36,760 nucleotides of DNA from IMG/VR virus record IMGVR_UViG_3300036805_000152, positions 1-36,760 of that record. One strand, 5' to 3'. The position numbers and the translations under genes were made by a program. Source of the stretch: a virus (lineage: Duplodnaviria > Caudoviricetes). The notes beneath the pieces were generated by a model that saw nothing but the letters and a program-made list of their open reading frames with translations, was not told the DNA's origin and did no database searches. Shown one piece after another: positions 958-36,760 of the stretch (positions are counted from its first letter, which is position 1; each line of letters begins with the position of its first letter).

Positions 958-2316
958 ATGAAAATGATTCGTGCGGCTCTAGCCGTGATTCTCTTCGCGG
1001 GCCTGGCGCTCGCACAAATCAAGACGGGCGGGAATGTCACGGTACCGGCTTCCGGCGCTCCGCTTTCCCTCTCGCTGACGGCTGTTACTCCTGCTGGCAC
1101 TTGCGCACTGGGACAACCGAACCAGTTCAACTACCTCACTGGCCACACGTGGGCCTGCACGGGCGCGCCTGGTGCGCAGGTTTTGACTGATATCACGGCG
1201 CAGCGCAGCGGCAATCGCGTGTGTTCACTCGGCGATTCGCTAAGCGGCCTCAACGCTACCGATACGCGATGGGCACCCACGTTCCTGACTTACGCAGTAC
1301 TCGTGTCCAAGGGACAAATGCAGTTTGTGCACAACGGCGGCATAAGCGGGCAGACCTCCGATCAGATCCTCGCGCGCATTGTCGAAGTGACCGGCGCAGC
1401 TTGCGACAAGGTGTACGTCGAGGCGGGCAGCAACGATATCGCGGCAGGTTCCACGGCTGCCGTGGTCGAAGCCAATCTGACCCAGATGTACGCGCAGATC
1501 CTTGCAGCGGGCGAATTGCCGATTGCGACTACCATTCCTCCTCGCGGGACCTTCTATGCGCAAGTCAACACGCTCAATGCGTGGATTCGGCGCACTGCGC
1601 TGAAGCTCGAAATACCGCTGTTCGATATGTACGCTCCAGTGACGGATGCGACGACGGGCGGCTACAAAACCGGGTATTCCGGCGATGCGATCCATCCACA
1701 AGGTGTAGCGGTTCGCCTGGTTGGGACGCAAGCATTCGCCGATGTGCAAAGCGTGCTGCCTGCCGCGCACACGCTGTTACCGGCCAGCAATTCGGACCCC
1801 ACGAACATCGTCACGAACGCGCTGATGATCACATCGAGCGGCGGCGTGCCTGCTGGCTGGACTACCTCGTCTCCTGCCGCGCATACGGCGTTCAGCGTGT
1901 CGACGGACACGAATCTCGCGGGAAATGCGTTTGTAATGACCAAAACGGTCGCTGGCACGTCCGACAACGATTCCGCCTCGTTCACCCTCGTCAACAATGC
2001 GGCAGTGATCCCTGGCCACACTTATGCGTTTACGGGCCGCATCGTCACGTCGGGCAATGAAACCGGAAACCTGATTCTGCAAGTGTCGCTCGACACGTAT
2101 ACGAGTGGCTTCGCCACAAACCCGTTGAGCATCTACCCGGTGTACGCCTATAATCCCGGCGTCGACATTCCGGCTGGTCAGTGGTACATGGAATTTGTCA
2201 TGCCGGCGAACGTCACTATCTTCGACGTGTCGGTCGCGCTCGGAAACGGGACGGGCGTCGTGAAGGTCGGACAAATCGGTCTCTACGATCTAACTGCGCT
2301 CGGCCTTTCCAACTAA
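958..2316 (+). CDS. SGNH/GDSL hydrolase with N-terminal signal peptide and C-terminal beta-sandwich (CBM-like) region
   Basis: GDSLS, GISG, GSND and DAIHP blocks; MKMIRAALAVILFAGLALA|Q leader. Confidence 0.85.
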   Translation: MKMIRAALAVILFAGLALAQIKTGGNVTVPASGAPLSLSLTAVTPAGTCALGQPNQFNYLTGHTWACTGAPGAQVLTDITAQRSGNRVCSLGDSLSGLNATDTRWAPTFLTYAVLVSKGQMQFVHNGGISGQTSDQILARIVEVTGAACDKVYVEAGSNDIAAGSTAAVVEANLTQMYAQILAAGELPIATTIPPRGTFYAQVNTLNAWIRRTALKLEIPLFDMYAPVTDATTGGYKTGYSGDAIHPQGVAVRLVGTQAFADVQSVLPAAHTLLPASNSDPTNIVTNALMITSSGGVPAGWTTSSPAAHTAFSVSTDTNLAGNAFVMTKTVAGTSDNDSASFTLVNNAAVIPGHTYAFTGRIVTSGNETGNLILQVSLDTYTSGFATNPLSIYPVYAYNPGVDIPAGQWYMEFVMPANVTIFDVSVALGNGTGVVKVGQIGLYDLTALGLSN

Positions 2317-2349: not shown

Positions 2350-3084
2350 ATGACAGTCCTGGATCTCATCAAGCGCAGCTTGCGCTTACTCGGCACGTAC
2401 AACGTTGGCGACGACGACCCCGAAGCAGCGGAAGCGCAAGCGGGACTCGTGGCACTCAATGCACTCGTAGACGCGTGGGGCTTGCAACGTCTCTCGATGT
2501 TCACGAGTTCCGGGACTGTCTATAACCTCCAGGCGGGCAAGGCTTCCTACACGATCGGGCCGAGCGGAGCGGATTGGACCGCACCCCGGCCCCTGTACCT
2601 CGACACTGCAACGGTAGTGATCCCTGGCACGCCCGACAACTATGAGCGGCCCCTGAAGGTCATCCCTGACGATCAGGCGTGGGCACGGCTGCGCATCAAG
2701 TCCCTGGCATCCACTCTGGTCACGGCAATGTACCTGCAGCCGGATTTCCCGAACGCCACGGTATTCCCCTGGCCCGTTCCGCAGAGCGCGCAGCAGATCA
2801 TCCTTTACACGCCAACGGCAATCTCCCAGTTCAGCGGCCTCACGCAAGCGATTTCACTGCCACCGGGCTATGCGCGCGCACTGCCGTACAACCTGGCGGT
2901 AGACCTCGCACCGGAGTTTGACAAAGAAGCTCCTCCCACCGTGCAGCGCATTGCAATCGACTCGATGGAAGCCGTGCGGCGCTGGAACATCACCCGCGCA
3001 ATGGGGCGCTTGCGCTGTGATCCCGCTTTGACCGTCACGGATCACGGCGGCCATTTTGACTGGACGATCGGGGAGACCCGCTAG
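2350..3084 (+). CDS. Head-to-tail adaptor, P22 gp4-like
   Basis: MTVLDLIKRSLRLLG...ALNALVDAW...YNLAVDLAPEF; position before gp10-like gene. Confidence 0.8.
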   Translation: MTVLDLIKRSLRLLGTYNVGDDDPEAAEAQAGLVALNALVDAWGLQRLSMFTSSGTVYNLQAGKASYTIGPSGADWTAPRPLYLDTATVVIPGTPDNYERPLKVIPDDQAWARLRIKSLASTLVTAMYLQPDFPNATVFPWPVPQSAQQIILYTPTAISQFSGLTQAISLPPGYARALPYNLAVDLAPEFDKEAPPTVQRIAIDSMEAVRRWNITRAMGRLRCDPALTVTDHGGHFDWTIGETR

Positions 3085-4523
3085 TGGCGCAGTTTCAGGG
3101 TTTTTGCGGCGGCACCTACACGGGGCGCGCTCTCGCGATTGACGGCGAGAGGGCCATCAACTTCTACCCGGAGCGGATGGAATCGCAGGGTGCGGTAGAG
3201 AAAACGCAATACGCCTTATTCAGTAAGCCTGGACTGCAGCAGTTCGCCACGTTTCCCAATGCGGATAGCGTTCAGGCGCTCTGGTCCGAAAACGGCCGGC
3301 TCTTCGCTGTCGCAGGCGGCGTGTTCTATGAAGTGCTGCCGGATGGCAGCCACACGGGCTACGGCAGTGTGGGCACGGGACGCGTGCAGATGTGCGCCTC
3401 GCAGTCTCAGGTACTCATCCTTGCAACGAACAAGGGCTACATCTTCGATCTGATTCTGAAGACGCTGACCCAGATCACGGCAACCGGCTTTCCGGCAGGC
3501 GCTTCGAAATGCGGCTTCTCCGATGGCTACTTCGTTGTGCTCGAACCGGCAAGCCAGGTGTTTGCTATCTCGGCGCTGAACGATGGAACCCAGTGGGACG
3601 CGCTCGATTTCGGAGACGCGGAGGGCGAACCCGGCAACGTGGTTTCCTTCATCGTTGACCACCGGCAGATGTGGTTCCTTTGCACGACGCACGGCGAGGT
3701 TTACTACAACTCCGGCAACGCGAATTTCCCCTACGCGCGGCTGGAAGGCGCGTTCATGGAGCAGGGCACGTCCGCAATCGACTCGCCCGCGAAGTGCGAC
3801 AACACGATCTTCTGGCTCGGCGGCAACCGCGACGGCGCCGGAATCGTTTGGCGTGCCAACGGGTACACCCCGCAGCGTGTTTCGAACCACGCGATCGAAG
3901 CACTGATTGAAAGCTTCGGCGATATCAGCGATGCAACGGCCTACTGCTATCAGGAGGGCGGCCACACCTTCTACCGTCTCGATTTCCCGAGCGCGAACGA
4001 AGGGCTTGGCGCAACGCTCCTGTACGACGTGGCAAGCGGGTTTTGGCATGAGCGGACCTATCTGGTCAACGGAATCGAGCAAGCGGACCTGGCACGGTGC
4101 CATGCCTATTGCTTCGGCCTGCACATCGTCGGCGACTATCAGAGCGGAACGCTCTATATCCAGTCGATGAGCTACAACACGGATGCTGGCGCTCCCATCC
4201 GTCGCTTGCGTGCGGCCCCGGATATTTCAGATGGCGGCCTGTTCCGCTTCTACAGTGAGCTGCGCTTACTCATGCAAGTGGGCATGGGTTTGGATGGCAC
4301 CGGCCAAGGCACGGACCCGCAGATTATCTTGCAGTGCTCGAATGACGGCGGCTTCACCTGGGGCAACGAACGCTCGAAGAGCTGCGGGAAAATCGGGCAG
4401 TTTAAGAAGCTGGTCCGCTGGAAGCAGCTCGGGCGCTCGCAGAACCGCTGTTTCCGCATCATCATCACGGAACCGATCTTCGTAGCCATCATCTCAGCAG
4501 ATCTGGACAGCAGCAATGGCTAA
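3084..4523 (+). CDS. Packaged DNA stabilization / tail hub protein, P22 gp10-like
   Basis: 479 aa beta-rich; INFYPE, DGYFV, SNDGGFTW, WKQLG motifs; position. Confidence 0.85.
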   Translation: MAQFQGFCGGTYTGRALAIDGERAINFYPERMESQGAVEKTQYALFSKPGLQQFATFPNADSVQALWSENGRLFAVAGGVFYEVLPDGSHTGYGSVGTGRVQMCASQSQVLILATNKGYIFDLILKTLTQITATGFPAGASKCGFSDGYFVVLEPASQVFAISALNDGTQWDALDFGDAEGEPGNVVSFIVDHRQMWFLCTTHGEVYYNSGNANFPYARLEGAFMEQGTSAIDSPAKCDNTIFWLGGNRDGAGIVWRANGYTPQRVSNHAIEALIESFGDISDATAYCYQEGGHTFYRLDFPSANEGLGATLLYDVASGFWHERTYLVNGIEQADLARCHAYCFGLHIVGDYQSGTLYIQSMSYNTDAGAPIRRLRAAPDISDGGLFRFYSELRLLMQVGMGLDGTGQGTDPQIILQCSNDGGFTWGNERSKSCGKIGQFKKLVRWKQLGRSQNRCFRIIITEPIFVAIISADLDSSNG

Positions 4524-6764: not shown

Positions 6765-8075
6765 ATGATCGACCCCAATATTGCGCTCTCGTACCGTCCG
6801 ACCGACCTCGGCATCGACACCCCGACACAGGTGATGACGTCCACGCAGCAACTCTCGAACCTGCAACAGGTTGGAAAAATGGAGCAGGCACAGACCACGG
6901 GCTTGACCCAGGAGAATGACGCCCGTGCGCTCCAGATGAAGACGGCGGCCGCGACGAACGCGGCGATTGCTGCCAATGCAAAACCGGATGCCAACGGCAA
7001 CGTAGTAATTGACCACGCGGGAGTGGTGAAGACACTCTCGCAGAACGGCATGGGGCTTGCCGCGCAGCAGTATCAGGATGCGCAGACAAAGCGCGACCAG
7101 GATTTAGCGAAGCTCACCGGTGACCAGCTCACCAATGCGGCCAAGCAACATCAAATGATCGAATCCGCACTTGGATCTGTGATCGGTTTGAAAGATCCGG
7201 CAGCGCGTCAAAAGGCATGGGACGAACAAGTCAAATTTGCCTACGACAACAAACTCGCAGCGAAGGGCACACTATCTCCGACTCCCCCAGACGACGCCAC
7301 GCTGCAAACAATGTTGTGGTCCTCGATGGATGGCCAGCAACAAATCCAGGAACGGCTTGCACAACAGAATGCAGCGTCAGCCGAGAAGCGGGCCGATGCA
7401 GCGGAAACCAAATCCGACGCTTACATGGATTACGTCACAGGGAAGAACCAGCCTAAACAGGCAGTGTTCACCAAGCAGTACGACAAAGACAATCACCCGA
7501 TCATGCAAGGTCCGGACGGCAAGCTGTATGTGGACACGTCCGTTACAGGCGCTCCGTATACCGATTCAACTACCGGTAAGGACCGCAAAGTAACACCGGA
7601 CGCAATGCTCGCGGACCGGCGCGCCAACGAGAAGGATTACGAAACCCAGGCGGGCGCGGAAATCAAAGCGCGGCAGGAAGCACAAGCCCTGCAAACGGCG
7701 CTGTCAGACGGACGCGGCTACGTCGATGAGAAGGGCAAGTACAAATCGTTTAGCTCGATGAAGCGCACGGATGGGCAAGACCTCACCGATGACGACAAGG
7801 CCGCCTACGTCCAGGACATGAAGCAGCGTCTTGCTGTTTCGCAGAACGCCATCGAAACCGCAGTCTCGAACAAGAACAACGCCATGCAGCGCAACGGCGT
7901 AACGCCGCAGGTTTCGACTCAGCAAGCGATCAACGCGTATCGCGGGCAGGGTGCACAGCAGAAGCCACCCGCCAACGTCATCGCGCAAATGCAGGTGGGC
8001 AAGGTCACCACTTTCAAAAACGGACAGAAGTGGATGAAGAACCAAGACGGTTCGGTTAAGCAAGTCACTCAGTAA
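6765..8075 (+). CDS. Ejection protein, gp20 position
   Basis: ATG 6765 (MIDPNIAL); Gln/Ala-rich helical protein between gp7-like and giant protein; TAATG coupling. Confidence 0.7.
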   Translation: MIDPNIALSYRPTDLGIDTPTQVMTSTQQLSNLQQVGKMEQAQTTGLTQENDARALQMKTAAATNAAIAANAKPDANGNVVIDHAGVVKTLSQNGMGLAAQQYQDAQTKRDQDLAKLTGDQLTNAAKQHQMIESALGSVIGLKDPAARQKAWDEQVKFAYDNKLAAKGTLSPTPPDDATLQTMLWSSMDGQQQIQERLAQQNAASAEKRADAAETKSDAYMDYVTGKNQPKQAVFTKQYDKDNHPIMQGPDGKLYVDTSVTGAPYTDSTTGKDRKVTPDAMLADRRANEKDYETQAGAEIKARQEAQALQTALSDGRGYVDEKGKYKSFSSMKRTDGQDLTDDDKAAYVQDMKQRLAVSQNAIETAVSNKNNAMQRNGVTPQVSTQQAINAYRGQGAQQKPPANVIAQMQVGKVTTFKNGQKWMKNQDGSVKQVTQ

Positions 8076-11000
8076 TGCCAAACGATTGGGACATAACCGG
8101 CGTCTCGGACGCACCGGCTAGTACGGGCGCGTCCGGCTGGGACATCGTAGACGGCGGCCAACCGAAGGCGGCAACGCCAGCGGCACCGCAGCCACAGCCA
8201 GCGAAACCCTCGGGACCCGCTCCGGTTCCGGGCGGCATGGCCCTTTCGACCCCGGTTAACTACGATCCGGTTCCCGTTCTGCAGCAAGGCTGGGAAAACC
8301 TCAAGGGCTTCTTCCGTTCGCTCGGCGAAGTGAACGCGAGCAACCCGGAGGCGGGCGGATCCACATTTCGGATGGGGACGAACGGCAAGACCGAAGTTAC
8401 CCCTCCCCCGACCGATGTCGACCTCACCAGGCTCGCGGACGCGGCACAGAAGCCAGCCCTGCCGATCAGCGCAGGCCTGCCGGCGTCTTCCCCGGGTGTG
8501 GTCAAGGGCGCGTTCAAGGGCCTTGAGAGTCTCACCACCCCGGAAAACGCGGAAGTCCTCGCGGCTACCTGGCCCGTTGGCACCGTCGCAAAGCTCACGA
8601 ACGTAGGACTCGATGCGGCAGCGATCCGTGGCGTGAATGCTGCGCTCGGCGGATACTTCGCAGCTTCGATGGCGAAGGGCACGTTTGACGACGTGCGGGA
8701 CGCCTACAACGCTTACAAGGCAGGCGACCTCGACCGCACCGCGGAACTGCTCGGCATGGGTACCGTCCAGGGATTGCTCGCCGGTGTCGGCGCATGGCAT
8801 GGCGTCCGGAACGTACGCGAGATCGGGAAGACCCAGATTCCCGTTACCCCGGCCCCGGAAGGGCCAGCGGCCCCGGAACCCGTGGCACCAGGGCCTCCTC
8901 CGGGTAGTGGGCCCGTGATCGACATTCAGGCGGAACCGGAGTCTCCTGCAGAAGCCCCCGCAGTTGCACCGGAGCCACCGGCACCGGCCCCGAAACCGAA
9001 ACGACAGCGGCCCGCGAAGGCAGTCAACACCCCTAGCGACTACGCGCAACCAGGCGCGCTGTCTACGCCCGCAGCAGCGGCACCACCAGCAGCGGCACCC
9101 GTGGCGGCACCACCAGCAGCGGCACCACCAGCAGCGGCACCACCAGCAGCGGCACCCGTGGCGGCACCACCAGCAGCGGCACCCGTGGCGGCGGCACCCG
9201 TGGCGGCGGCACCCGTGGCAGCGGAATGGGAACCCGTCAAAACGGAGGAACCTGAACCAGCTCCAGCGACACCAGCGGCGGCACCCGTGGCAGCGGAATG
9301 GGAACCCGTCAAAACGGAGGAACCTGAACCAGCTCCAGCGACACCAGCGGCGGCACCCGTGGCGGCGGAATGGGAACCCGTCAAAACGGAAAAATCAGTT
9401 CCACCCGCAGGCCTGCCGCACCCGAAGATGGCCGAACTGGTTGACGCCATTCAGGACCGCATCGCCAACGGCCCGCAGATAAAGGACACTCCTGCACTCG
9501 CGAAGCTTGCTTCTGACGTGCTCGGCGATGGACTGAGCAGCGGCAAGTACGACGTAAAAGATCTGTACGACGCACTCGAAACCGCAGTCAACCGGCACGT
9601 GTCGAGTGATGGCGGAATCATGCGGGCCGCACCTGCTGAAGCGCTGAAGGGTCTCCAGATCCTTACGTCCACTCTGCCCACGCAGACGGCGCGAACCAAG
9701 GAACAGAAGCAGTTCCAGCAATTCTCGACTCCTCCTGCACTGAGTTACGTCGCTGCGAAAGCGGCCAACATTCAACCGGGCGACACCGTGCTTGAACCGA
9801 GCGCAGGCACCGGCAGCTTAGCGGCGTTTGCGCGATCGGCGGGCGCACACGTGGAAACCAACGAGCTATCGCCCTCGCGTACTGCCTTCCTCGAACTCCA
9901 GGGCTACAAGCCCACGAGCGTGAATGCCGAACGCATCCGGGACCACCGGCCCGATCTGAAGCCGGATGTAGTGCTCATGAACCCCCCGTTCAGCGCGGAC
10001 GCGGGACGCACCGGCAAGAACAAGAACGCGATCGGCTACCAGCACGTACTCAGTGCGCTTGACACACTGCCCGCTGGCGGCCGCCTCGTGGCAATTCTCG
10101 GGCGCGGCGCTTCGTTCGATCACGTCACCGCTAACCCCTTCTGGCGAGGGATTAAGGAACGCGGCGCAGTGGTGCGGGCGAATCTCGGCCTTGATGGGTC
10201 TAATTACGCCAAGTACGGCACCACCTTCGACAACCGGCTTATAGTGGTCGATAAGGTTCCTTCAGACGTTCCCCCGCCAATCACAGGGGACTACAAGGAC
10301 CTTGCGGACGCACTCGATGCCCTTCAGCCAGTCATCCACGACCGAAGATCAACTCAACGAAGCGATAGCCAGGAACGGGGCGAAGTTTCTGTGGGATCAG
10401 ATTCTGAGCGCAGTGGCGATAGCCCTCGACCAGAACTACAAGAAGATCCAGGTGGAGATGGAGAGCGCGGGAGTGGACGCGGGGGACCCGGACAACCTGA
10501 TGCACATGTTGAGCCGGTTGGACCCAGAACCATCGCTGAAGGCGATCCAAGACCAGAACTCGAATCTGGACCTGCTGACGCCATCACGCCATCCCCTACC
10601 GATCACGCTGGCGTTGATCGACCTGCTGAGCGACAGCAACCCCTCATTGAGTTAACCACCCGCGATCGTTCGAACGAGACCGTTGAGCGGGAGGGCGCGT
10701 ATCAACAGTACCGGCCCGAAAAGCTTTCCACCGGCGTAAGCCATAAGCAGGCCACCGGGACAGGTTTGGTCGAAACCGGCGCTCTCGCTTCCGTTGAACC
10801 TCCCGATATCGACTACCGGCCCCACATCCCGGCCTCGGTCATCGCCAGCGGCCACATCACGGATGCGCAGCTAGAAGCCATCACCTACGCGGGACAAGCC
10901 AACTCACACGTATTGCCCAACGGCAAGCGCGCGGGCTACATGATCGGCGACGGGACCGGCGTAGGAAAGGGAACCGAAGCCGCAGGTATCGCACTCGACA

Positions 11001-14000
11001 ACTGGAACCAGGGGCGGCGTAAGATCCTTTGGCTCTCGCTGAAGCCCGGACTCATCCGGCAGGCGCAGCGTGATCTCGATTGGGTAGAGGCACCCATCAA
11101 GGCCAAGATGCTCAACGATTGGGGATTCGACGAACCCGTTGACCACGAGGGCGTAGTATTTGCCACTTACTCGATGTTGCATCGCACATCCGCCAAGCAG
11201 GGCGAGGGTTCGCGTCTCGATCAGCTTCTCAAGTGGAGTCCCGACGTAATCCTGATGGACGAATCGCACGCGGCCAAGAATGCCGTAGTTGCGGGCGGCG
11301 GCGATGACGAGGAAGAAAGCGGCGGCAGGGTACGGCTAAAGGGCACGACCAGCAAAGCGGGTGAAGCCGTCCTCGACCTCGATAACAAGCTCCCGAATGC
11401 CCGTGTAACCTACTTCAGCGCCACCGCGTTCACCGACGTTGCAAACCTCGGGTATGCCTCACGGCTCGGGCTGTGGGGACCTGGGACCAGCTTTCCGGCT
11501 GGCTTCAAAGAGTTCATGGTCGAAGTCGACCGTGGCGGCTACGGCGCGATGGAACTCGTCTCGAAAGAGATGAAGGCGCTCGGACGTTACACGGCCCGTC
11601 AGATTTCGTTTGATGGCGTCGAGTACCGGGAAGTCACGGCACATCTGTCAGCCGCACAGCGGCAAATGTACGACGCGGGCGTGAAGGTGTGGCAAGAAAT
11701 CCTGAAGAACATCGACAAAGCCATCGAAGCACTTACAGGCGAAGACGACACCAAGAGCAAGGGCTTAGCCAAGGGGCGCGCCAAAAGCCAGTTCTGGAGC
11801 ACGAACCAACGGTTCTACCGGGCCATCATCACGGCGATGAAGATCCCTACCGTGATCGAGGAAATCGAGGGGGCACTTGAACGCGGTAACAGCATCTTCC
11901 TCGACTTAGTAAGTACGGGTGAAGCGGAAGCGCAGCGCCAGCTAGTCAAGGCGGCGGAAGAAAATCTGAGCTTCGAAGAACTGGATATGTCGGCTAAGTC
12001 GATGGTCATGAACTATCTGGACAACGCTTTCCCGACGCAGATCATGGAGGATTACAAGGACCCGGACACGGGTTCGATTCGATCTCGTCCAGTAATCGAC
12101 GAGCAGGGAAAGCCCGTGCATTCGCAGGAAGCGATTGCGATGCGCGAGGCGCTGAAGAAAGAACTGGACAAGATCCAGCTCCCGCAGTCACCGCTCGACC
12201 AGATCATCGACTACTTCGGCCCGGATGCCGTGGCGGAAATCTCGGGGCGCACGTCTCGCATTGTGCAAGACGAGAAATCCGGGCGGCCCGTCGAAGTCAA
12301 GCGCGTGAAGCCCAAGGGCGCAAGCGCGAAGGACGTGAACGACTGGGAACGCCACAACTTTCAGAGCGGAAAGAAGCGTATCGCGGTAGCTTCGGGCGCG
12401 GGCGGGACCGGCTTTGACTTCCATTCGGACAAGCGCAGCGCCAACCAGCAGCGCAGAACCCACATCGTCCTCGAACCGTCATGGTCGGCTGACCAGCAAA
12501 TGCAGAAGTTCGGGCGCACGCACCGCACGAACCAGGCGAACGCACCTGAGTATGTCCTGGTTGCTTCGGATCTCGGCGGGGAGAAGCGCTTCATTTCGGC
12601 GATTGCCTCGCGCATCGCCTCGCTCGGAGCACTGACCCGTGGCGAACGCAAGGCAGGCGGCGGCGCGGCGGAAATGCTGGCCCGCTACAACCTCGAAGGC
12701 AAGTACGGAGAAGCGGCAAAACAGGCGTGGTTCAAGGCATTGAACGGCGGCCAAGCCATCCTGCAAGACGATGTGACGGTCAATCTGCCGAAGCCACCGG
12801 CAGAACTCGAAGAGATGAACCGAGAGGACCTGGCGCGCATGTTAGGCGTACTACGCGAAGGGCAGAGCGGCAACACGATCAACGACTCACTCAGCCTGAA
12901 GCAGTTTTTGAATCACGTGCTGAACCTGCCGACTGATGTACAGCAGTTGACCTTCAACTACTTCATGGAGCTGTTCGACCGCATCATTGAGACGGTCAAA
13001 CAGGCGGGTGCTTACGACGAAGGCACGCAGGAACTCAAAGCGCTGCGCGCGGAGGTCACAGATAAGGATGTAATCCGGCGCGGGGAAAGCGGCGCCGCGA
13101 CGAACCACTTGTCTATCGACGCTCATTTTCCGCTCGAAAAGAACGACTGGGAAACCGCAGTGCATCACGCGAACCAGGCCCCGGACCCATCGGATTACAA
13201 CCAGCGGCAATATGCAGGGCTGTACCGCAATCTGAAAAGCAGCCAATTGTGGATGGCGCGCAAAGCGGCCAAGGACATTACCGACCAGGCGTCGGGCGCA
13301 GTCATACCGGCGATGGCGCTACTCGGCCCGAAGCAGGGTAGCCGTCAAGTCGTTCCCGTGGCGCAGTTGTCAGACCCCAAGAGGTTCGAGCGCGTCCAGA
13401 ACTACGACGCCAAGAAAACATGGGAACAAGCGCTGAGCGAACTCCCCGACTCCGAACAGCAAGAGCTGCACATTATCAACGGTTCCGTGCTGCCCGTGTG
13501 GAAGCAGCTCGGCGCATCGGGCGACGGCTGGCGCATGAACGTCGTCCAGATCCACACCGAAAACCAGGGCACTGTTTCCGGAGTTCTGATCCCGGCTGAA
13601 CAGATCCAAACGCTGAAGGATTCGCTCGGCGGCGGCGGCGCTTCCTCCCCGGCACTCATCCTCAATCGGATCTGGAGGCAAGGCGAACGTATCCAGCTCC
13701 GTGGCGCTTCCCTTTCCGCAACCCGCGTGATGGGAGAGCGGGCGATCGTCATTCAACCGGCGAAGCAGGCGGGCCGCACTGTGCTCGAAGGACTCGGTAT
13801 TCCGCACATGGAAACCGCATCGAGCGTGCGCTATTACCTGCCCTATGCGGATGATCCTAGCGACGAGCTGCAGACCTCAACCGTCGAGAAGCTAACCAAA
13901 ATCCTCCAGGCGTTCCCGCTTCAGGGCGACACGGCCCCACAATCCGGGGCGCAGACCATCACCAGCGGTCTCACGTTCGGTGATGCGTCCAAGCTGTTCA

Positions 14001-16396
14001 CCGGCCACAAGGTCGGCGAACCGGAACGGACCTATTCAGGGATAGGGGCACTCAAAAGCTACACCGTACGCAATCTGTCTCAGCTCGAAGAAGTTTCACC
14101 AGCGGCGCACCAGGCGGCGGTACGGGCGGCCAGTTCGCGGGCGCAGTCGGCAGCGCTAATGCGCTCGGCCTGGCCTGCCGTGTCGAAGGCGCTCGGGGCA
14201 GTGAAGCCGGATGACTTCCGGCGCGCGCTAATCGAATCCCGCTTGCAGGGCGTGGAACAGCGCTGGAACGAACTCGCCGAAGTGACGCACAACGTTCCAG
14301 CGGACGAACTCCTCGATTGGGTAAGCTCCGGACCGCTGCAAGTGCTCGACTCAATGAGCGAAGACGGGGACATGGCGCAGCAAGCGGCGGCGCTAGCGAG
14401 CAACCTCCAGGTACTTCCGAAACAGAAGTGGAATCGTAAAGCGATTCAGCGGTTGCGGGACCTGGTGGGCGGCGCGTTCGAGGACGCGGCGGGCAGCGTG
14501 CACCACATGATGACTCCGGACGAGTTCCAGGACATCACCCAGGACCCCGGATTCCAGCGCGGCCTCGCCGTCTACAAGCGCGAGATCGAAGAACCCCTGG
14601 CACGCAATCACGAGATGAACGAGGGCGTGTTTTCGAAGGCGCTCGGCCCACTCGACACCTACTACCCGTTGACTCCGATCCGGGCGGAAGACGAAGCGGC
14701 CCGAGTGATGGGCGTGCGGCGGGGCTTTAAGAAGCCCTCGAACATCGCGAACAAGTTCACAACCGGCCTAGCGGATGACTACGATCACACGTTACCGGCG
14801 TTCAAGGACAAGGCGGAAGCCGCGATCCGGGTGAACGACAAGGCGGCGCTGATCGAGGAATTGCACAACGCCGGCATCTTGCGGAAGCTGAAGCCGGATC
14901 AGCGCGCGGATACGGTTCACTTCGAAGGGCGCGAGTTCGCGGCCAAGGTGGTGAGTGTCGGACCAGCTCGCGTGATTGCCGGGGACGACGGCAAGGTGAT
15001 CCGTATCCCGGAGCAACGGGCCGCGATTCCGGAGCCGTTCTATCACGAGCTAAAGCCGATGCTCGAACCGGACGCTAAGCTTCCACCGGGCCTATTCCAG
15101 CGTTTGCTGCACGTGGTCAATGAGGCGACGCTGGCAGGACCAGCGGAAGCGGTGATCCACTCGCACAACCTGGTGGGCGCGCTGATTGCCAATACCCCAT
15201 TTCTCGGGGCGGACTGGGCAACGCAGACGATCGGCAACACGCCGGTAACAAAGACATTCACCGCACTGTTCAAGCTGGCGGCCACCGATCCAATGAGCGA
15301 TAACGCGGCGCGTGATCTGCGCGAGATGGCGAAACTCGGCCTGCTGCCCGAGCGCTTTGGCGCGGAAACCTACAGCCAGAAGTACGCCACGATGACGGGC
15401 GCGGAAAAGAAAACGCCTCTCCTCAATTGGGGACCTGTCCTTTATGGTCCGAAGGGCGTCGACGTTCGGGCGCGTTTGTTGATGTACCGGCTGGCGCGTG
15501 AAATCAATCCTGGTGCGACACCGCTGGAGACTTACAAATTCGTCAACCAGCTCGGGAACTATACGGAAGCCTTGCAGGGACACTTGGAACGCTCGCTGAA
15601 GCGCACCGGCTTATCGCGATTTGTGACGGCGGGCTCCACGATGTTGCGGAACGGCGTGGACGCGTGGCTTGGCACAGGCAGCGGATCGGGACCTGGCGGC
15701 GGGGCAAAGAACCGCATCAGGCAAATGCTTTCGGGCGGCGCGATCGGGCTGCTCGCCGCGTGGGTCTTCGCTTACAAGGCATCCACTGGCAAATGGCCCT
15801 GGCAGGACAAACGCTCGAAGCTCCTGAAGATTCCCGTCAGTGAGGAAATCCGGCGCTCGAAGCTCGGCCTCGCGATCTGGGGACACGATACCCGCAAAGT
15901 GGGGTACGTCAACTTCGGCGTGTTCAGTCCGCTGGTTGCGCGCGGCGCTCGCGGCCTCGGAATCGACGGAAGCTACAACACCGCCGTCGAGGGCGGCAAT
16001 CTGGCACAGATCGGCGAGGCAGCTAAGCGCGATGTCGCAAACTCGGCCATGCACCCGGTTGCAGGACCAGCGGCGCGCGTGCTCCTGGTTGGAGTCACGG
16101 GCAAACAGCCGTACTTAGTCGATGACAGCGACCAGGGCGGCAGCAAGTTCCTATCGGCACTGCCGAAGAAAGCACCCATCGGCAGCGAGGTACTGAGCGC
16201 GGCCAAGCAGCTCAATAGCTTCTATGGCAACGTAGGCGCGGCCACGGGTATGGGCGGACCTGGCGAGGACAAACACGCCACGGCAACCGACCAGATCGTT
16301 AAAGCCGTGATCGACATGACCGGCATCTCGGGCGGCGCAAGCGACCCCTACGCAGCACAGCAAGCGCTCGCGAAAGAGCGCAGGACACACAGGTAA
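8075..16396 (+). CDS. Giant ejection/polyvalent (DarB-like) protein: N6-adenine DNA methyltransferase plus Strawberry-notch SF2 helicase
   Basis: VLEPSAGTG and MNPPFS MTase motifs; IGDGTGVGKG, MDESH, SAT, QKFGRTHRTNQ helicase motifs; third ejection-protein slot. Confidence 0.88.
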   Translation: MPNDWDITGVSDAPASTGASGWDIVDGGQPKAATPAAPQPQPAKPSGPAPVPGGMALSTPVNYDPVPVLQQGWENLKGFFRSLGEVNASNPEAGGSTFRMGTNGKTEVTPPPTDVDLTRLADAAQKPALPISAGLPASSPGVVKGAFKGLESLTTPENAEVLAATWPVGTVAKLTNVGLDAAAIRGVNAALGGYFAASMAKGTFDDVRDAYNAYKAGDLDRTAELLGMGTVQGLLAGVGAWHGVRNVREIGKTQIPVTPAPEGPAAPEPVAPGPPPGSGPVIDIQAEPESPAEAPAVAPEPPAPAPKPKRQRPAKAVNTPSDYAQPGALSTPAAAAPPAAAPVAAPPAAAPPAAAPPAAAPVAAPPAAAPVAAAPVAAAPVAAEWEPVKTEEPEPAPATPAAAPVAAEWEPVKTEEPEPAPATPAAAPVAAEWEPVKTEKSVPPAGLPHPKMAELVDAIQDRIANGPQIKDTPALAKLASDVLGDGLSSGKYDVKDLYDALETAVNRHVSSDGGIMRAAPAEALKGLQILTSTLPTQTARTKEQKQFQQFSTPPALSYVAAKAANIQPGDTVLEPSAGTGSLAAFARSAGAHVETNELSPSRTAFLELQGYKPTSVNAERIRDHRPDLKPDVVLMNPPFSADAGRTGKNKNAIGYQHVLSALDTLPAGGRLVAILGRGASFDHVTANPFWRGIKERGAVVRANLGLDGSNYAKYGTTFDNRLIVVDKVPSDVPPPITGDYKDLADALDALQPVIHDRRSTQRSDSQERGEVSVGSDSERSGDSPRPELQEDPGGDGERGSGRGGPGQPDAHVEPVGPRTIAEGDPRPELESGPADAITPSPTDHAGVDRPAERQQPLIELTTRDRSNETVEREGAYQQYRPEKLSTGVSHKQATGTGLVETGALASVEPPDIDYRPHIPASVIASGHITDAQLEAITYAGQANSHVLPNGKRAGYMIGDGTGVGKGTEAAGIALDNWNQGRRKILWLSLKPGLIRQAQRDLDWVEAPIKAKMLNDWGFDEPVDHEGVVFATYSMLHRTSAKQGEGSRLDQLLKWSPDVILMDESHAAKNAVVAGGGDDEEESGGRVRLKGTTSKAGEAVLDLDNKLPNARVTYFSATAFTDVANLGYASRLGLWGPGTSFPAGFKEFMVEVDRGGYGAMELVSKEMKALGRYTARQISFDGVEYREVTAHLSAAQRQMYDAGVKVWQEILKNIDKAIEALTGEDDTKSKGLAKGRAKSQFWSTNQRFYRAIITAMKIPTVIEEIEGALERGNSIFLDLVSTGEAEAQRQLVKAAEENLSFEELDMSAKSMVMNYLDNAFPTQIMEDYKDPDTGSIRSRPVIDEQGKPVHSQEAIAMREALKKELDKIQLPQSPLDQIIDYFGPDAVAEISGRTSRIVQDEKSGRPVEVKRVKPKGASAKDVNDWERHNFQSGKKRIAVASGAGGTGFDFHSDKRSANQQRRTHIVLEPSWSADQQMQKFGRTHRTNQANAPEYVLVASDLGGEKRFISAIASRIASLGALTRGERKAGGGAAEMLARYNLEGKYGEAAKQAWFKALNGGQAILQDDVTVNLPKPPAELEEMNREDLARMLGVLREGQSGNTINDSLSLKQFLNHVLNLPTDVQQLTFNYFMELFDRIIETVKQAGAYDEGTQELKALRAEVTDKDVIRRGESGAATNHLSIDAHFPLEKNDWETAVHHANQAPDPSDYNQRQYAGLYRNLKSSQLWMARKAAKDITDQASGAVIPAMALLGPKQGSRQVVPVAQLSDPKRFERVQNYDAKKTWEQALSELPDSEQQELHIINGSVLPVWKQLGASGDGWRMNVVQIHTENQGTVSGVLIPAEQIQTLKDSLGGGGASSPALILNRIWRQGERIQLRGASLSATRVMGERAIVIQPAKQAGRTVLEGLGIPHMETASSVRYYLPYADDPSDELQTSTVEKLTKILQAFPLQGDTAPQSGAQTITSGLTFGDASKLFTGHKVGEPERTYSGIGALKSYTVRNLSQLEEVSPAAHQAAVRAASSRAQSAALMRSAWPAVSKALGAVKPDDFRRALIESRLQGVEQRWNELAEVTHNVPADELLDWVSSGPLQVLDSMSEDGDMAQQAAALASNLQVLPKQKWNRKAIQRLRDLVGGAFEDAAGSVHHMMTPDEFQDITQDPGFQRGLAVYKREIEEPLARNHEMNEGVFSKALGPLDTYYPLTPIRAEDEAARVMGVRRGFKKPSNIANKFTTGLADDYDHTLPAFKDKAEAAIRVNDKAALIEELHNAGILRKLKPDQRADTVHFEGREFAAKVVSVGPARVIAGDDGKVIRIPEQRAAIPEPFYHELKPMLEPDAKLPPGLFQRLLHVVNEATLAGPAEAVIHSHNLVGALIANTPFLGADWATQTIGNTPVTKTFTALFKLAATDPMSDNAARDLREMAKLGLLPERFGAETYSQKYATMTGAEKKTPLLNWGPVLYGPKGVDVRARLLMYRLAREINPGATPLETYKFVNQLGNYTEALQGHLERSLKRTGLSRFVTAGSTMLRNGVDAWLGTGSGSGPGGGAKNRIRQMLSGGAIGLLAAWVFAYKASTGKWPWQDKRSKLLKIPVSEEIRRSKLGLAIWGHDTRKVGYVNFGVFSPLVARGARGLGIDGSYNTAVEGGNLAQIGEAAKRDVANSAMHPVAGPAARVLLVGVTGKQPYLVDDSDQGGSKFLSALPKKAPIGSEVLSAAKQLNSFYGNVGAATGMGGPGEDKHATATDQIVKAVIDMTGISGGASDPYAAQQALAKERRTHR
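9070..9390 (+). repeat. Compound coding repeat: 15-bp (AAAPP/AAAPV) units and 72-bp (AAPVAAEWEPVKTEEPEPAPATPA) units
   Basis: GAATGGGAACCCGTCAAAACGGA at 9224, 9296, 9368. Confidence 0.92.
10317..10655 (+). CDS. Putative overprinted gene nested in another frame of the giant protein
   Basis: ATG 10317 (TTG 10302 alternative); G/C-ending codons and helical-protein composition in this frame while the host frame is low complexity. Confidence 0.6.
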   Translation: MPFSQSSTTEDQLNEAIARNGAKFLWDQILSAVAIALDQNYKKIQVEMESAGVDAGDPDNLMHMLSRLDPEPSLKAIQDQNSNLDLLTPSRHPLPITLALIDLLSDSNPSLS

Positions 16397-16404: not shown

Positions 16405-18762
16405 ATGAAACGACTTCTCTTACTCGCACTGGCGGGCGTGGCGGCTTTTGCCCAAAACGCGGCTTTGATGCCGATGCCGAAGCTCCAGTTCTTCGACGGG
16501 AACGGCGTCCCACTCGCGGGCGGCTCCATCTACACCTACGCGGCGGGCACCAACAACCCGCTGGCGACCTTCACGGATTCAACCGGGGGCACCCCGAACC
16601 AGAACCCGGTTCCACTCGATTCAGCGGGACGCGCATCCATCTGGATTGGCAGCAGCTCCTACAAGGTCATCGCGCAGGATCAGTACGGCGTGATCCAGTG
16701 GACGCAAGACAACGTATCGAGCACTGCAATTGCTACCGGCGTGAGTCTCACGTCTAACGGCGCATCGCTGATCAAGTGGACCGCCCCTAACGGCACGGCG
16801 CGGACCGTCGCGGCCAAGCTTGGGGATTACATCTCTTTGCTCGATTACGGGGCACTCTGCGATGGCGTCACCGATGACACTGCGGCGTTCCAGCGGGCGC
16901 TCGCGGCCGCGCAAGCGGCGGGAAAACCGCTGTACACCCCGGATGGCTTGACCTGTCTGATCGGGCCAACGACTACCAGCGGCAATCTGTTCTTGCGAGG
17001 CTTCGGAACGCTGAAGCTCTACAGCACTTCGATTTATCCGAGCAACTTCGCGCTCCTCACGGTCAACGGCGGAACCGTCAACGTGGCTGATGTGACCTTC
17101 GACCAGAACATGACTTCCGGCACCGCGACGGGAAGCTGGACGGACGGCACGGAACCCGTGGCGACCAACGGCTACTTTTACTTGCGGGTGAATAACTCCA
17201 CGAACGTCGAACTGGGCGATGTGGTGTTCCAGAACATGAAGCGCGGCGTGCTGCTCAATAGTTCGTCGCACGTGTCCATTCATGACTGCACCGGCATGTT
17301 GCAGGGCAGTGCGACCACCAACCTGATTGCGCTCGACAACGTAACCGATATCGAGATGCACGCGAACCGCTTTTACGGTGACACCTGGGACGTGAACCCC
17401 ACGACCTACTCGGTTAACGGGCTTCTCGGCTGGAACGTGAACAGCGGCCATATCTCGGGCAATATCTGGAAGGGCTTTCAGATCGTGCTGCGCAGCGTGA
17501 ACCCTTATGTGCTGCCAGCGGGCCAAGCCACAGACCTGACGTTCTCGGACAACGTTGTGGACACCCCCGTGGCGGACACGGCGCTTGTGGGCTTTTACAA
17601 AGTCGTCGCGATCGGCAACCGCATCCGGCAATCGGGCGATATGGGTCTGACTTTCGACAATTCCAGTTATGTGACCTCGGGCAACAACTTCATCGAATCT
17701 CCGCACACCGGCTGCATGAACATCTCGGGTGCTGTCAGCGTCACGGCCACCGGCAATATCTGCAGGAATCCGGCAAGAGCTTACGCGCAGTGGAATGCGA
17801 TTCGTGCTCCAAGCTTTGGCGGTTCGTGGATGTCTTGTATGACGGTCAGCTTGAACACGGGTGCGCTCGGCGTTTCGAGTGGCGTCACCATCACCGGCAA
17901 TTCCTGCTGGATGGATGTGCTGCCTCCTGTCACCGATGGCCTTGGCCAAGTGCGCAGCAGAGTGGGCGGGATCATGGTGGATCCCACCACGTCTACACCC
18001 TCGCAGGTAGTCATTTCAAACAACTTCGTTTACGCGGATGAGACGAATATGCCGAATTTTTTCATTGCGGCTCCCACGGCGGCCATCACGTACTCAGCCG
18101 TCACCGGCACCCCACGGGCGGGCGAACTGTTCAAGAGCACGGCGGGTAACCAGTTCCGTCTCGTAACAGCAGTTAACAATTTCATCTGGATGCGCGACTA
18201 TATCGGCTTCCCGCTCGGCAACGAGGTTTACACCGGCCAGTCGAGCAGCGCGACATTGACGATTGCGGCGGCCATTCAACCCGGCTTCCAGGGTGTGTAC
18301 TTCGACCACCAGAACCATGACTACATAACGGCTGCCGTAGACAGCTACCGGGGCAGCAACGTTTTGGTTCCGAATGCGTTCAACACGGCGGCTCCCACCG
18401 TTGCGTTCGGTGACCCGAACACGGGAATTTCCAGCGAGAGTTCCGGCGCGCTCGACTTCTGGACGAAGACCAGGGGCGGCACGATCAAGCTCTGGGGCAA
18501 TGTGATCGACCGCGCTAGCGGTGCTGGATACGGCGGCGGCGGTTCGCTGCATGATCTCGCGTTCGATGCGCCCAAGGGCGGAAGCTGGTACTACCTTCGG
18601 GGAATATCGAGCTATCTGGGAAGCCAGTCAATTGATTTCTGGTTCGACTCGAACGGTGTGCTGAGTATGCCTGCCCTCAAGTCCAACACGGGTGTGCGGT
18701 ACGCATGTTTCGACACTACGGGCAAACTGGTTTCGCAAACGTCCGCTTGCTCGGGAACCTAA
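16405..18762 (+). CDS. Tailspike/depolymerase (right-handed beta-helix) with N-terminal signal peptide
   Basis: PKLQFFDGNGVPLAGGSIYTYAAGT anchor-type domain; LDYGALCDGVTDDTAAFQRA pectate-lyase-3-like start; Asn/Gly-rich rungs; MKRLLLLALAGVAAFA|Q leader. Confidence 0.85.
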   Translation: MKRLLLLALAGVAAFAQNAALMPMPKLQFFDGNGVPLAGGSIYTYAAGTNNPLATFTDSTGGTPNQNPVPLDSAGRASIWIGSSSYKVIAQDQYGVIQWTQDNVSSTAIATGVSLTSNGASLIKWTAPNGTARTVAAKLGDYISLLDYGALCDGVTDDTAAFQRALAAAQAAGKPLYTPDGLTCLIGPTTTSGNLFLRGFGTLKLYSTSIYPSNFALLTVNGGTVNVADVTFDQNMTSGTATGSWTDGTEPVATNGYFYLRVNNSTNVELGDVVFQNMKRGVLLNSSSHVSIHDCTGMLQGSATTNLIALDNVTDIEMHANRFYGDTWDVNPTTYSVNGLLGWNVNSGHISGNIWKGFQIVLRSVNPYVLPAGQATDLTFSDNVVDTPVADTALVGFYKVVAIGNRIRQSGDMGLTFDNSSYVTSGNNFIESPHTGCMNISGAVSVTATGNICRNPARAYAQWNAIRAPSFGGSWMSCMTVSLNTGALGVSSGVTITGNSCWMDVLPPVTDGLGQVRSRVGGIMVDPTTSTPSQVVISNNFVYADETNMPNFFIAAPTAAITYSAVTGTPRAGELFKSTAGNQFRLVTAVNNFIWMRDYIGFPLGNEVYTGQSSSATLTIAAAIQPGFQGVYFDHQNHDYITAAVDSYRGSNVLVPNAFNTAAPTVAFGDPNTGISSESSGALDFWTKTRGGTIKLWGNVIDRASGAGYGGGGSLHDLAFDAPKGGSWYYLRGISSYLGSQSIDFWFDSNGVLSMPALKSNTGVRYACFDTTGKLVSQTSACSGT

Positions 18763-18848
18763 TCCCGCGTTCGACGGCGGAACCCGGCGCGCAGGTACGC
18801 GATCAGCACCACGCTAAGCACCAGCCAACCTAAGATCCACCACCACAC
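18759..18848 (-). CDS. Possible 29-aa single-TM peptide
   Basis: GTG-WWWILGWLVLSVVLIAYLRAGFRRRTRD; start uncertain. Confidence 0.4.
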   Translation of the reverse strand: MWWWILGWLVLSVVLIAYLRAGFRRRTRD

Positions 18849-18909
18849 AACCAAACAATAACGCCCGCGCGTGACCAGGCTTTCTGGCACTCGCGGGCGC
18901 TTTTTGCGT

Positions 18910-23432: not shown

Positions 23433-23484
23433 TTAGTAAGAGCTTATCGTACCTAAGCTAAAGATGGGGTATGTTGCTGTGTCT

Positions 23485-23513: not shown

Positions 23514-23539
23514 GCTAACTGTCCCTACTTGGGGCAGTG

Positions 23540-32907: not shown

Positions 32908-33105
32908 ATGAACACGGTACGTCAACCGGACCCGACCGAAAAGAAGCGCTGTCCGAAGTGCTTCAACACGCAAGAAATACGAGACGGCGGCCCGTCGCTG
33001 CGCGGCTTTCGCGCTTATGACCTGATGACTGACACCTGGGGCGTGCTCCGCTGTCCCGCTTGCGGCTTTCGCGGCGGCGCTGCAGAGTTCCGAAAACAAC
33101 GATGA
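32908..33105 (+). CDS. Zn-ribbon microprotein
   Basis: CPKC...CPACG; ATGA overlap with portal. Confidence 0.65.
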   Translation: MNTVRQPDPTEKKRCPKCFNTQEIRDGGPSLRGFRAYDLMTDTWGVLRCPACGFRGGAAEFRKQR

Positions 33106-36267: not shown

Positions 36268-36760
36268 GTGAACAACCTTCTAACCGATCAGCACATTACT
36301 GCTGAAGCGCTGATGATCCTCGAAAACGAACTCGTTTTCACCAAACAGGTCAATCGGCAATACGAAAAAGAATTTAAGGGACCGGCCAAGCGCGGCGCGA
36401 CAGTGTTCGCCAAGAAGCCACCCAAGTACACGGTTCGTGACGGCCAAAACGTTGCGATCCAAGACACGACCATCACGCAGGTTCCCGTCACACTGAACCA
36501 CCAGTTCGGTGTGGACGTTGAGTTCACAAGCTCAGACCTCGCACTCGATATCGAGGCATTCGGACGTGACGTTCTGCAACCGCAGATCGTGCAGATTGCC
36601 AACGCGATCGACCTCGCGGGCCTCCAGATGGCGGCCCTCGCTTCGGGCAACGTTGTAGGCGTAGCTGGAACCTCTCCCGGAACCGGCGCGACTGCGCAGG
36701 CAGCGCTTGCCATTTATGGCAATGCAGCGGCTTTGCTCGATTCCAACGCTTGCCCGCGCG
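36268..36760 (+). CDS. P22-type major capsid protein, 5' part (continues at position 1; ~421 aa total)
   Basis: GTG 36268 after AGGA; MNNLLTDQHITAEALMILENELVFTKQVNRQYEKEF... resembles P22 coat family N-terminus; follows scaffold; in frame across junction. Confidence 0.88.
   Translation, partial: MNNLLTDQHITAEALMILENELVFTKQVNRQYEKEFKGPAKRGATVFAKKPPKYTVRDGQNVAIQDTTITQVPVTLNHQFGVDVEFTSSDLALDIEAFGRDVLQPQIVQIANAIDLAGLQMAALASGNVVGVAGTSPGTGATAQAALAIYGNAAALLDSNACPR
36634..36760 (+). repeat. 127-nt terminal direct repeat (copy 2)
   Basis: Identical to 1-127. Confidence 0.95.

What the first reader, a model, noticed from the sequence alone, without database searches (positions are those of the whole stretch)
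16405..18762. Tailspike with a Sec-type signal peptide ahead of its virion-anchor domain
Seen: MKR + LLLLALAGVA + AFA|Q precedes the PKLQFFDGNGVPLAGG domain and a beta-helix, with in-frame Met codons at 16468 and 16474 just after the predicted cleavage site, and a C-terminal Cys pair. Known: tailed-phage virions assemble in the cytoplasm and tailspikes normally lack export signals. Inference: the spike is exported and added to particles in the periplasm or at lysis, is secreted as a free depolymerase, or is made in two forms from dual starts. With the second signal-peptide protein (958-2316) this suggests an undescribed envelope-linked maturation or egress route.
Basis: partly seen in the sequence, partly recalled or inferred. 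Interest (0 to 1): 0.82.

Follow-up and report, generated by a model that had tools for sequence, protein, structure and literature searches.

The report
Exported tailspike of Acidobacteria phage
A P22-like phage, likely of soil Acidobacteria, and many relatives start their particle-docking tailspike with a predicted bacterial secretion signal and carry paired cysteines in it, so this host-recognition part likely folds in the periplasm and would join the virus only when the cell bursts, a route my literature searches did not find described for tailed phages.

Summary
Confirmed. ORF 16405-18762 has a 16-residue Sec-type leader (AFA|Q) directly before a tailspike head-binding domain (Pam1 7EEQ, P22 1LKT fold) and a beta-helix. 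It is the only such gene in a circular 36.6-kb P22-like podophage, whose nearest relative is a Bryobacteraceae prophage. The leader is a lineage trait: 62 of 203 non-redundant homologues have it, 60 with Gln at +1, and 15 of 17 Acidobacteriota genome loci. Cysteines occur in pairs in 30 of 62 leader-bearing anchor domains against 2 of 141 leaderless ones; a leaderless sister phage with the same upstream DNA lacks 3 of 4. Dual starts are not needed: 7 of 24 loci have no second start codon. Best reading: Sec export, oxidative folding in the periplasm, docking on spikeless particles at lysis (0.6; P22 spikes dock in vitro). Export, disulfides and docking are inferred; SignalP was unavailable. A new egress route is unsupported, though no endolysin was recognised here. 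Cultured Tunturi 1/2 show similar leaders and Tunturi 3 (same host) does not, so it is testable. This scan noted the same trait before in at least 20 other genomes.

The parts
16405..16452 (+). Predicted Sec/SPI signal peptide, residues 1-16, cleavage AFA|Q
   Evidence: Sequence; same pattern in 62 of 203 non-redundant homologues, Gln at +1 in 60; ATG 8 nt after upstream stop
16462..16731 (+). Tailspike head-binding (virion-anchor) domain, residues 20-109; the only copy in the genome
   Evidence: Profile hits 7EEQ 'Tailspike head-binding domain' E 5.5e-12 and 9VYG/9VYH; model pLDDT 90 matches Pan3, Pam1, P22 1LKT/2VKY, Sf6 gp14N at TM 0.7-0.8; one match in G000
16468..16476 (+). In-frame Met codons M22 and M24; not conserved family-wide
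   Evidence: Met near the domain start in 33 of 62 leader-bearing homologues; no ATG in 14 of 24 and no ATG/GTG/TTG in 7 of 24 DNA loci
16831..18039 (+). Right-handed beta-helix body (predicted polysaccharide-binding or -cutting), with candidate Cys pairs 152/184, 437/453, 478/501
   Evidence: PF12708 at 143-181; Atlas structure neighbours; against P0007 (63% identical) every Cys difference comes in twos; end point read from a low-confidence model
18706..18750 (+). C-terminal Cys768/Cys782 pair
   Evidence: Conserved in P0007; Cys in the last 30 residues in 47 of 62 leader-bearing vs 37 of 141 leaderless homologues
958..2316 (+). Second leader-bearing protein, right after the coat gene: leader (958-1014), Cys49/Cys67 module, SGNH/GDSL esterase, C-terminal domain
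   Evidence: PF13472, phrog_6102; N-module 50% identical to the leader-bearing post-coat protein of prophage G001; post-coat gene has a leader in 3 of 6 leader-bearing vs 2 of 74 leaderless loci
3084..4523 (+). Tail hub / head closure (P22 gp10-like), no leader; presumed docking site
   Evidence: phrog_578; no leader in 13 of 13 labelled hub ORFs of leader-bearing loci
2350..3084 (+). Head-tail adaptor (by position), no leader
   Evidence: phrog_12985 and synteny
33060..35102 (+). P22-like portal, no leader
   Evidence: PF16510 E 6e-168
36268..36760 (+). P22-type coat gene, continuing across the circular junction into 1-900
   Evidence: PF11651 on both halves; 127-nt terminal overlap
8075..16396 (+). 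Giant ejection-position protein with methylase and Strawberry-notch helicase domains; its stop lies 8 nt before the tailspike ATG
   Evidence: PF13872, PF13871, PHROG methyltransferase hits

Best explanation
The gene encodes the phage's only P22-type tailspike, with a predicted Sec signal peptide ahead of its head-binding domain, so the spike is likely exported, cleaved and folded with disulfides in the host periplasm and would dock on spikeless particles when the inner membrane fails at lysis. Shown: leader, head-binding fold, single copy, leaderless core particle genes, host link, paired cysteines in the family. Inferred: cleavage at AFA|Q; pyroglutamate cap by the host glutaminyl cyclase; oxidation through a VKOR-type relay; trimer formation outside the cytoplasm; docking on the gp10-like hub as a last, spontaneous step, as in P22. 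The esterase at 958-2316 likely follows the same route, as a head appendage or as an envelope-modifying enzyme. Surplus exported spike may also loosen the capsule.
For: Domain identity: 7EEQ, 9VYG, P22 and Sf6 head-binding domains. Sole copy in the genome. In the prophage of the 4.7-Mb contig G891 the single match has a leader and no other start codon (L163). Leader in 62 of 203 non-redundant homologues; the predicted mature end is in register with the start of leaderless ones. Two or more Cys in the anchor: 30 of 62 vs 2 of 141; 30 of 31 Cys-bearing leader anchors have them in pairs, at about five different column pairs, whereas 11 of 13 leaderless ones have a single Cys. Beta-helix cap Cys with a partner: 9 of 18 vs 0 of 52. 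Within-clade contrasts: L018 shares 30 identical upstream nt and the ATG with L012 but is leaderless and lacks 3 of the 4 anchor Cys; L014's leaderless anchor has 0 Cys in 324 aa and is followed by Cys-rich leader-bearing genes. Hub, ejection, coat and portal ORFs of leader-bearing loci lack leaders (0 of 13, 0 of 15, 0 of 5, 0 of 2). Hosts: leader in 7 of 7 Acidobacteriota vs 1 of 10 other GTDB loci and in 8 of 10 further loci from genome samples; glutaminyl cyclase in 4 of 5 and VKOR in 3 of 5 host genomes. P22 heads plus purified tailspike give infective phage in vitro (bioRxiv 10.1101/2021.09.20.461090).
Against: No direct evidence of export, cleavage, disulfides or presence in the virion. 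This window's own anchor domain has no Cys and the protein has an odd total (9). The Cys contrast is not phylogenetically independent: only 2 supported independent pairs, sign test not significant; beta-helices also stack free Cys, and native P22 tailspike has eight reduced Cys (PMC3357383). DsbB was found in 0 of 5 host genomes, and neither DsbB nor VKOR in 2 of 5 (genomes may be incomplete). Export is not required for Acidobacteriota phages: Tunturi 3 (0 of 23 genes examined) and two genome loci (L156, L166) are leaderless. P22 tailspike tolerates a 43-residue N-terminal extension, so uncleaved precursor could dock in the cytoplasm. Three leader-bearing copies sit in chromosomes without recognised particle genes nearby (L061, L169, L175).
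Confidence: 0.6

Rival explanations
1. The protein is exported but works only as a free or envelope-held depolymerase (capsule thinning for release, or receptor removal against superinfection); the head-binding domain is a relic or a trimerisation module.
For: Exported beta-helix glycanases are common in bacteria (Atlas neighbours). Leader-bearing copies persist outside intact prophages (L061, L169, L175). PBR31 has a leader-bearing SGNH esterase in its lysis block (PMC10975493).
Against: It is the only head-binding-domain gene and the only recognised receptor-binding candidate in the genome. It sits at the tailspike position after the ejection genes. The anchor is the best-conserved part while the bodies are exchanged (29% mean identity over full length).
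Confidence: 0.17
2. Two forms are made: a cytoplasmic one for the virion (internal start at 16468/16474, or precursor that escapes Sec during heavy late expression) and an exported one.
For: Two in-frame ATGs here and in the closest prophage. Met near the domain start in 33 of 62. P22 spike docks with a 43-residue N-terminal extension.
Against: 7 of 24 loci have no alternative start codon. No SD-like motif before the internal ATGs. Paired Cys inside the docking domain of 30 of 62 leader-bearing homologues suggest that the docking form itself is oxidised.
Confidence: 0.15
3. Particles are finished and released by an envelope-linked route without a classical endolysin.
For: No endolysin was recognised among the window ORFs scanned (77 in PHROGs, 5 of them from other loci) or among 37 selected ORFs of prophages G001 and G411 (plus 3 G001 ORFs).
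Against: Leader-bearing prophage L170 has a phrog_938 endolysin, and Tunturi 1/2 have annotated endolysins and were isolated as virus particles on their host (PMC11924767). Small holin-like genes are present (29736-29957). Most small ORFs have no family at all, so a divergent endolysin may have been missed. No transport route for a capsid across the inner membrane is known to me.
Confidence: 0.06
4. The leader is not translated or not functional (mis-called start).
For: No strong SD ahead of 16405; SignalP not run.
Against: Independent leaders with the same n/h/c pattern in 62 of 203 clusters. The leader ATG lies within -4 to +14 nt of the upstream stop in 9 of 21 loci. L012 and L018 use the same ATG after identical DNA for a leader-bearing and a leaderless spike.
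Confidence: 0.02

Closest known systems
P22 gp9 / Sf6 gp14 tailspikes (1LKT, 2VKY, 7SG7, 8TVR)
   Same: Head-binding fold (TM 0.72-0.75), beta-helix body, P22-type portal, coat, hub and ejection genes; the spike is added last and docks on heads in vitro.
   Different: P22 gp9 folds in the cytosol and its native Cys are reduced (PMC3357383); it has no export leader (recalled). Here the leader and paired Cys point to periplasmic folding.
Cyanophage Pam1 (7EEQ) and Pan3 (9VYG/9VYH) tail spikes; PBR31, VvAW1, BA3, P26218 tailspikes
   Same: Closest sequence family of the anchor domain (E 5.5e-12; 38-51% identity).
   Different: Of 203 sampled family members, 141 begin at the domain with no leader. 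The N-termini of these named phages were not read one by one.
Tunturiibacter phages Tunturi 1 and 2 (PP887698, PP885685; PMC11924767)
   Same: Cultured Acidobacteriota podoviruses whose large Cys-rich gp12, gp13, gp14 ('tail spike', from an internal start), gp16 and gp17 carry leaders while portal, capsid and tail core genes do not.
   Different: Other phage lineage; no significant match to this anchor profile (best E 0.04). The paper's main text never mentions signal peptides.
Xanthomonas phage PBR31 gp40 (PMC10975493)
   Same: Phage SGNH esterase with an N-terminal signal peptide, like 958-2316.
   Different: Lies in the lysis block and is proposed to aid lysis; here the gene follows the coat gene and has an extra Cys module.
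Bdellovibrio MAT fibres (PMC10769870) and Pantoea WceF (PMC7949094)
   Same: Phage-fibre- or tailspike-like trimers made by bacteria; MATs have a signal peptide, so such folds can mature after export.
   Different: Bacterial surface or biofilm proteins, not parts of a virion. WceF seen only as a search listing and a weak fold hit.

Membership tests
P22-type podophage tailspike | N-terminal head-binding domain | tested here: met
P22-type podophage tailspike | Right-handed beta-helix body | tested here: met
   PF12708, Atlas neighbours TM 0.5-0.57; own model weak
P22-type podophage tailspike | Encoded in a P22-like module, after hub and ejection genes | tested here: met
P22-type podophage tailspike | Trimer bound to the tail hub of the virion | not testable with these tools
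   Needs virion proteomics or cryo-EM
P22-type podophage tailspike | Glycanase activity on a host surface polysaccharide | not testable with these tools
   Only one homologue of the body was found; no catalytic residues assigned
P22-type podophage tailspike | Leaderless protein made and folded in the cytoplasm | tested here: not met
   Predicted leader in this protein and 62 of 203 clusters: it works like a P22 spike but is a variant
Sec/SPase I substrate | Basic n-region, hydrophobic h-region, small-x-small cleavage motif | tested here: met
   46 of 46 with basic n-region, 42 of 46 with x-x-small|Q by a strict pattern; heuristic, not SignalP
Sec/SPase I substrate | Export and cleavage in vivo | not testable with these tools
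   Needs a reporter fusion or N-terminal proteomics
Lipoprotein or Tat substrate | Lipobox Cys or twin-arginine motif | tested here: not met
   No Cys in this leader; twin-arginine pattern in 0 of 46, lipobox-like in 3 of 46, all followed by a Gln site
Disulfide-bonded protein | Cys occur and co-vary in pairs | tested here: met
Disulfide-bonded protein | Association independent of ancestry | tested here: inconclusive
   Only 2 supported independent pairs

The most novel reading that the evidence does not exclude
Acidobacteriota podophages build their virion in two compartments: capsid, portal and hub in the cytoplasm, all outer appendages in the periplasm through the host's Sec, disulfide and pyroglutamate machinery. 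In this Bryobacteraceae lineage, which shows no recognisable endolysin, the exported spike and esterase also do the envelope-opening work, so maturation and exit are one coupled, undescribed step.
Probability: 0.1. Interest if true: 0.92.

Novelty: new variant of a known kind. Interest (0 to 1): 0.72.

Why it matters
Tailed phages are taken to assemble fully in the cytoplasm. If a docking tailspike matures in the periplasm, virions become infective only at lysis, and phages can use disulfide-stabilised receptor-binding proteins. The host's Sec and oxidative-folding systems then become steps, and possible defence points, in phage assembly. It also affects annotation: leader-bearing beta-helix genes in soil viromes are easily filed as secreted auxiliary carbohydrate enzymes when they may be virion parts. 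Cultured Tunturi 1/2 (leaders) and Tunturi 3 (none, same host strain) make the question testable now.

Tried and rejected
Complex prediction of the hub (alignment A2) with three copies of the anchor (A1): no verdict, score 0.00, controls not folded; counted neither way. Full-length model from a 2-row alignment: pLDDT 43; its fold hits (Sf6, HK620, Det7-type spikes, TM about 0.2) are weak, and no coordinates were available to measure Cys distances. The anchor-domain tree (quick search, 101 columns, 58 of 105 inner branches unresolved) could not fix the number of origins. Independent-pairs tests had 2 supported pairs and were not significant. Phylum-wide sample: only the seed genome matched, 1 of 401. 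Homologue searches of the spike body found one relative, and of the esterase N-terminus none besides itself. Tunturi 1 gp12 N-terminus against the anchor profile and the PDB: not significant. Rfam: no match in the window, so no known intron explains the split terminase. NCBIfam gave nothing for the spike. Rejected: carboxypeptidase-regulatory/transthyretin-like host domain (those hits rank far below head-binding domains); lipoprotein or Tat export; a mis-called start.

Full report
The window. It is a circularly permuted P22-like podophage: the ends overlap by 127 nt and the coat gene reads across the junction; portal PF16510, coat PF11651, hub phrog_578 and ejection genes are present. The record is classed as having direct terminal repeats, though CheckV estimates 56% completeness; a prophage of about 33 kb with the same particle-gene order argues that it is whole. 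That prophage lies between host genes on a 111-kb contig titled Bryobacteraceae (G001/L057; portal 66%, terminase halves 68-69%, coat 62%, hub 60%, serine recombinase 63%) and is the nearest row on the hub tree. The host is therefore likely a Bryobacteraceae; this is inferred.

ORF 16405-18762 starts with a 16-residue leader ending AFA|Q, has ATGs at 16468 and 16474, and ends in Cys768/Cys782. My n/h/c-region rule (not SignalP) flags 3 of 36 window genes: this one, 958-2316 and a 42-aa membrane peptide.

The anchor is a real head-binding domain. A 20-row profile hits PDB 7EEQ (Pam1 'Tailspike head-binding domain', E 5.5e-12) and 9VYG/9VYH. Its model (pLDDT 90) matches Pan3, Pam1, P22 and Sf6 head-binding domains at TM 0.7-0.8. 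It is the N-terminus of tailspikes of PBR31, VvAW1, BA3 and P26218; the PBR31 paper calls it apparently the virion-binding domain (PMC10975493, passages). The family is large (31,372 clusters at E 0.001), and the window has one copy. The body is a beta-helix by Pfam and Atlas neighbours; my own full-length model was poor.

The leader is a lineage trait. It is present in 45 of 119 listed homologues (best 120 of 255 hits, query included) and in 21 of 127 new representatives (105 leaderless, 1 with another layout and dropped). After dereplication at 50% it is 62 of 203, with Gln at +1 in 60. These sets are ranked by likeness to the query, so they overstate the family-wide share. Leaderless members start about 6 residues before the domain, in register with the predicted mature end. 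In the GTDB scan 7 of 7 Acidobacteriota loci and 1 of 10 others had it; the exception is a 29-kb MAG contig labelled Betaproteobacteria. Samples of 401 genomes each gave 4 matches (family of G001) and 9 (order of G004), 13 loci, 3 of them seen before; 8 of the 10 new ones have leaders and 2 do not. A phylum-wide sample matched only the seed. On a FastTree of 133 hub proteins, 14 of 16 leader-bearing rows (two are the same prophage) fall in one clade of 16 (support 99) with two leaderless members; two others lie elsewhere, and long branches make the count of origins unsure.

Start site. The leader ATG lies within -4 to +14 nt of the upstream gene's stop in 9 of 21 loci. Among 24 leader-bearing DNA loci (of 244 unique anchors), 14 have no ATG and 7 no ATG/GTG/TTG between the cleavage site and the start of the domain. 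L012 and L018 are sisters on the hub tree and share 30 identical bases and the ATG; L012 continues into a leader, L018 directly into the domain. Dual starts may occur in this phage but cannot be the family's mechanism.

Cysteines point to an oxidising compartment. Cys per 100 aa are 1.59 vs 1.01, even:odd totals 44:17 vs 61:67, and two or more Cys in the anchor 30 of 62 vs 2 of 141. In leader-bearing anchors 30 of 31 with Cys have them in pairs, at about five column pairs; 11 of 13 leaderless ones have one. A Cys in the beta-helix cap, with a partner downstream, occurs in 9 of 18 vs 0 of 52. Between this protein and P0007 (63% identical) all Cys differences come in twos. L018 lacks 3 of the 4 anchor Cys of L012/L013, though it has 9 Cys further along its truncated body; L014's leaderless anchor has none in 324 aa. 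Against: the window's own anchor has no Cys and its total is 9; the ancestry-corrected test had only 2 pairs and was not significant; native P22 tailspike holds eight reduced Cys (PMC3357383, passages). Of five host genomes, 4 have a glutaminyl cyclase, 3 VKOR, 0 DsbB.

Only outer parts carry leaders. In 19 leader-bearing loci the rule flagged 0 of 13 hubs, 0 of 15 ejection proteins, 0 of 5 coats and 0 of 2 portals; it also flagged 1 of 9 adaptors and 1 of 2 gp5029 homologues, which I did not resolve. Further leader|Gln proteins over 150 aa occur in 7 of 12 leader-bearing vs 5 of 116 leaderless loci. The gene after the coat has a leader in 3 of 6 vs 2 of 74, so 958-2316 belongs to the same pattern; its Cys49/Cys67 module is shared with the post-coat protein of G001. 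An exported phage SGNH esterase is already in print for PBR31.

Cultured comparators. A note of this scan mentioned cultured Acidobacteria viruses, and I checked them. In the first 50 kb of Tunturi 1, 6 of 28 genes examined have leaders: gp12, gp13, gp14 ('tail spike', from a start inside the annotated ORF), gp16, gp17 and a 44-aa peptide; Tunturi 2 is alike. Tunturi 3, on the same host strain, has 0 of 23, so export is a phage-lineage choice, not a host demand. These proteins do not match this anchor significantly. The Tunturi paper's main text has no 'signal peptide' (PMC11924767, passages; its supplements were not read and may bear on this).

Mechanism. Inferred chain: Sec export, cleavage at AFA|Q, pyroglutamate cap, disulfide formation and trimerisation in the periplasm, docking on the hub when lysis mixes the compartments. 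The last step is plausible because P22 heads and purified tailspike form infective phage on mixing (bioRxiv 10.1101/2021.09.20.461090, passages and section 3.6.1). The same text shows that a 43-residue N-terminal extension does not block docking, which keeps the leaky-export rival alive. The strongest argument for virion use is by exclusion: a P22-like particle needs spikes, this is the only head-binding gene, and in G891's prophage the single copy has no leaderless start. I put export at about 0.9 and export plus docking at lysis at 0.6. The free-enzyme rival gains from three copies outside intact prophages (L061, L169, L175). A non-lytic exit rests only on my failure to recognise an endolysin here and in G001/G411; L170 and Tunturi 1/2 have one.

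Literature. [quoted passage not shown] Subscription papers, including the Pam1 structure paper, were not seen. This scan's notes hold the same idea for at least 20 other genomes and none for this one; they are not independent support.

Verdict. A real, conserved feature: a P22-type tailspike that works like gp9 by anatomy but fails the 'cytoplasmic, leaderless' feature. New variant of a known kind, interest 0.72. What this window adds is the clean case: a single spike with an unambiguous head-binding domain, an integrated host link, and a sister pair showing loss of leader and cysteines together.

Noticed in passing
window 30910-32840: Large terminase is split into an ATPase ORF and a nuclease ORF with a 65-aa ORF (31882-32079) between; the same split occurs in prophage G001 (L179 16545-18882), so it is not an assembly error. 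No Rfam match in the gap.
   Followed up: partly
window 18760-30500; prophages G001 and G411: No endolysin or spanin recognised; only small hydrophobic holin-like ORFs (29050-29238, 29245-29466, 29736-29957, the last with a homologue after the G001 tailspike).
   Followed up: partly
window 8075-16396: 2773-aa protein at the ejection position with DNA methylase and Strawberry-notch helicase domains (DarB-like, label recalled); G001 has an unrelated 2338-aa protein at this position.
   Followed up: no
L014 9968-14303; L054: Leaderless, Cys-free anchor protein followed by Cys-rich leader-bearing genes: a possible cytoplasmic adaptor for exported fibres. L054, in another hub clade, has three such leader-bearing neighbours.
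   Followed up: partly
L018 9971 vs L012 9923: Sister phages with identical upstream DNA: one tailspike with leader and four anchor Cys, the other leaderless with one.
   Followed up: yes
L061 (G003), L169 (G835), L175 (G842): Leader-bearing head-binding-domain genes in Acidobacteriota chromosomes without recognised particle genes nearby; remnants or host-kept copies. L169 keeps a 1216-aa, 26-Cys leader-bearing neighbour.
   Followed up: partly
L170 9040-17462 (G891): Intact prophage with four consecutive leader-bearing genes (316, 1335, 135, 698 aa) followed by an endolysin.
   Followed up: partly
window 26014-26748 (-): Serine recombinase beside an excisionase-like gene (26822-27034); 63% identical to the one at the left end of prophage G001, so the phage is likely temperate.
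   Followed up: partly
L073 (G005): Only non-Acidobacteriota genome locus with a leader; 29-kb MAG contig grouping with an Acidobacteria locus on the hub tree, possibly mis-binned.
   Followed up: no
L176/L178 gp14: The annotated start of the Tunturi 1/2 tail spike hides its leader, which begins about 11 codons downstream at a TTG.
   Followed up: partly
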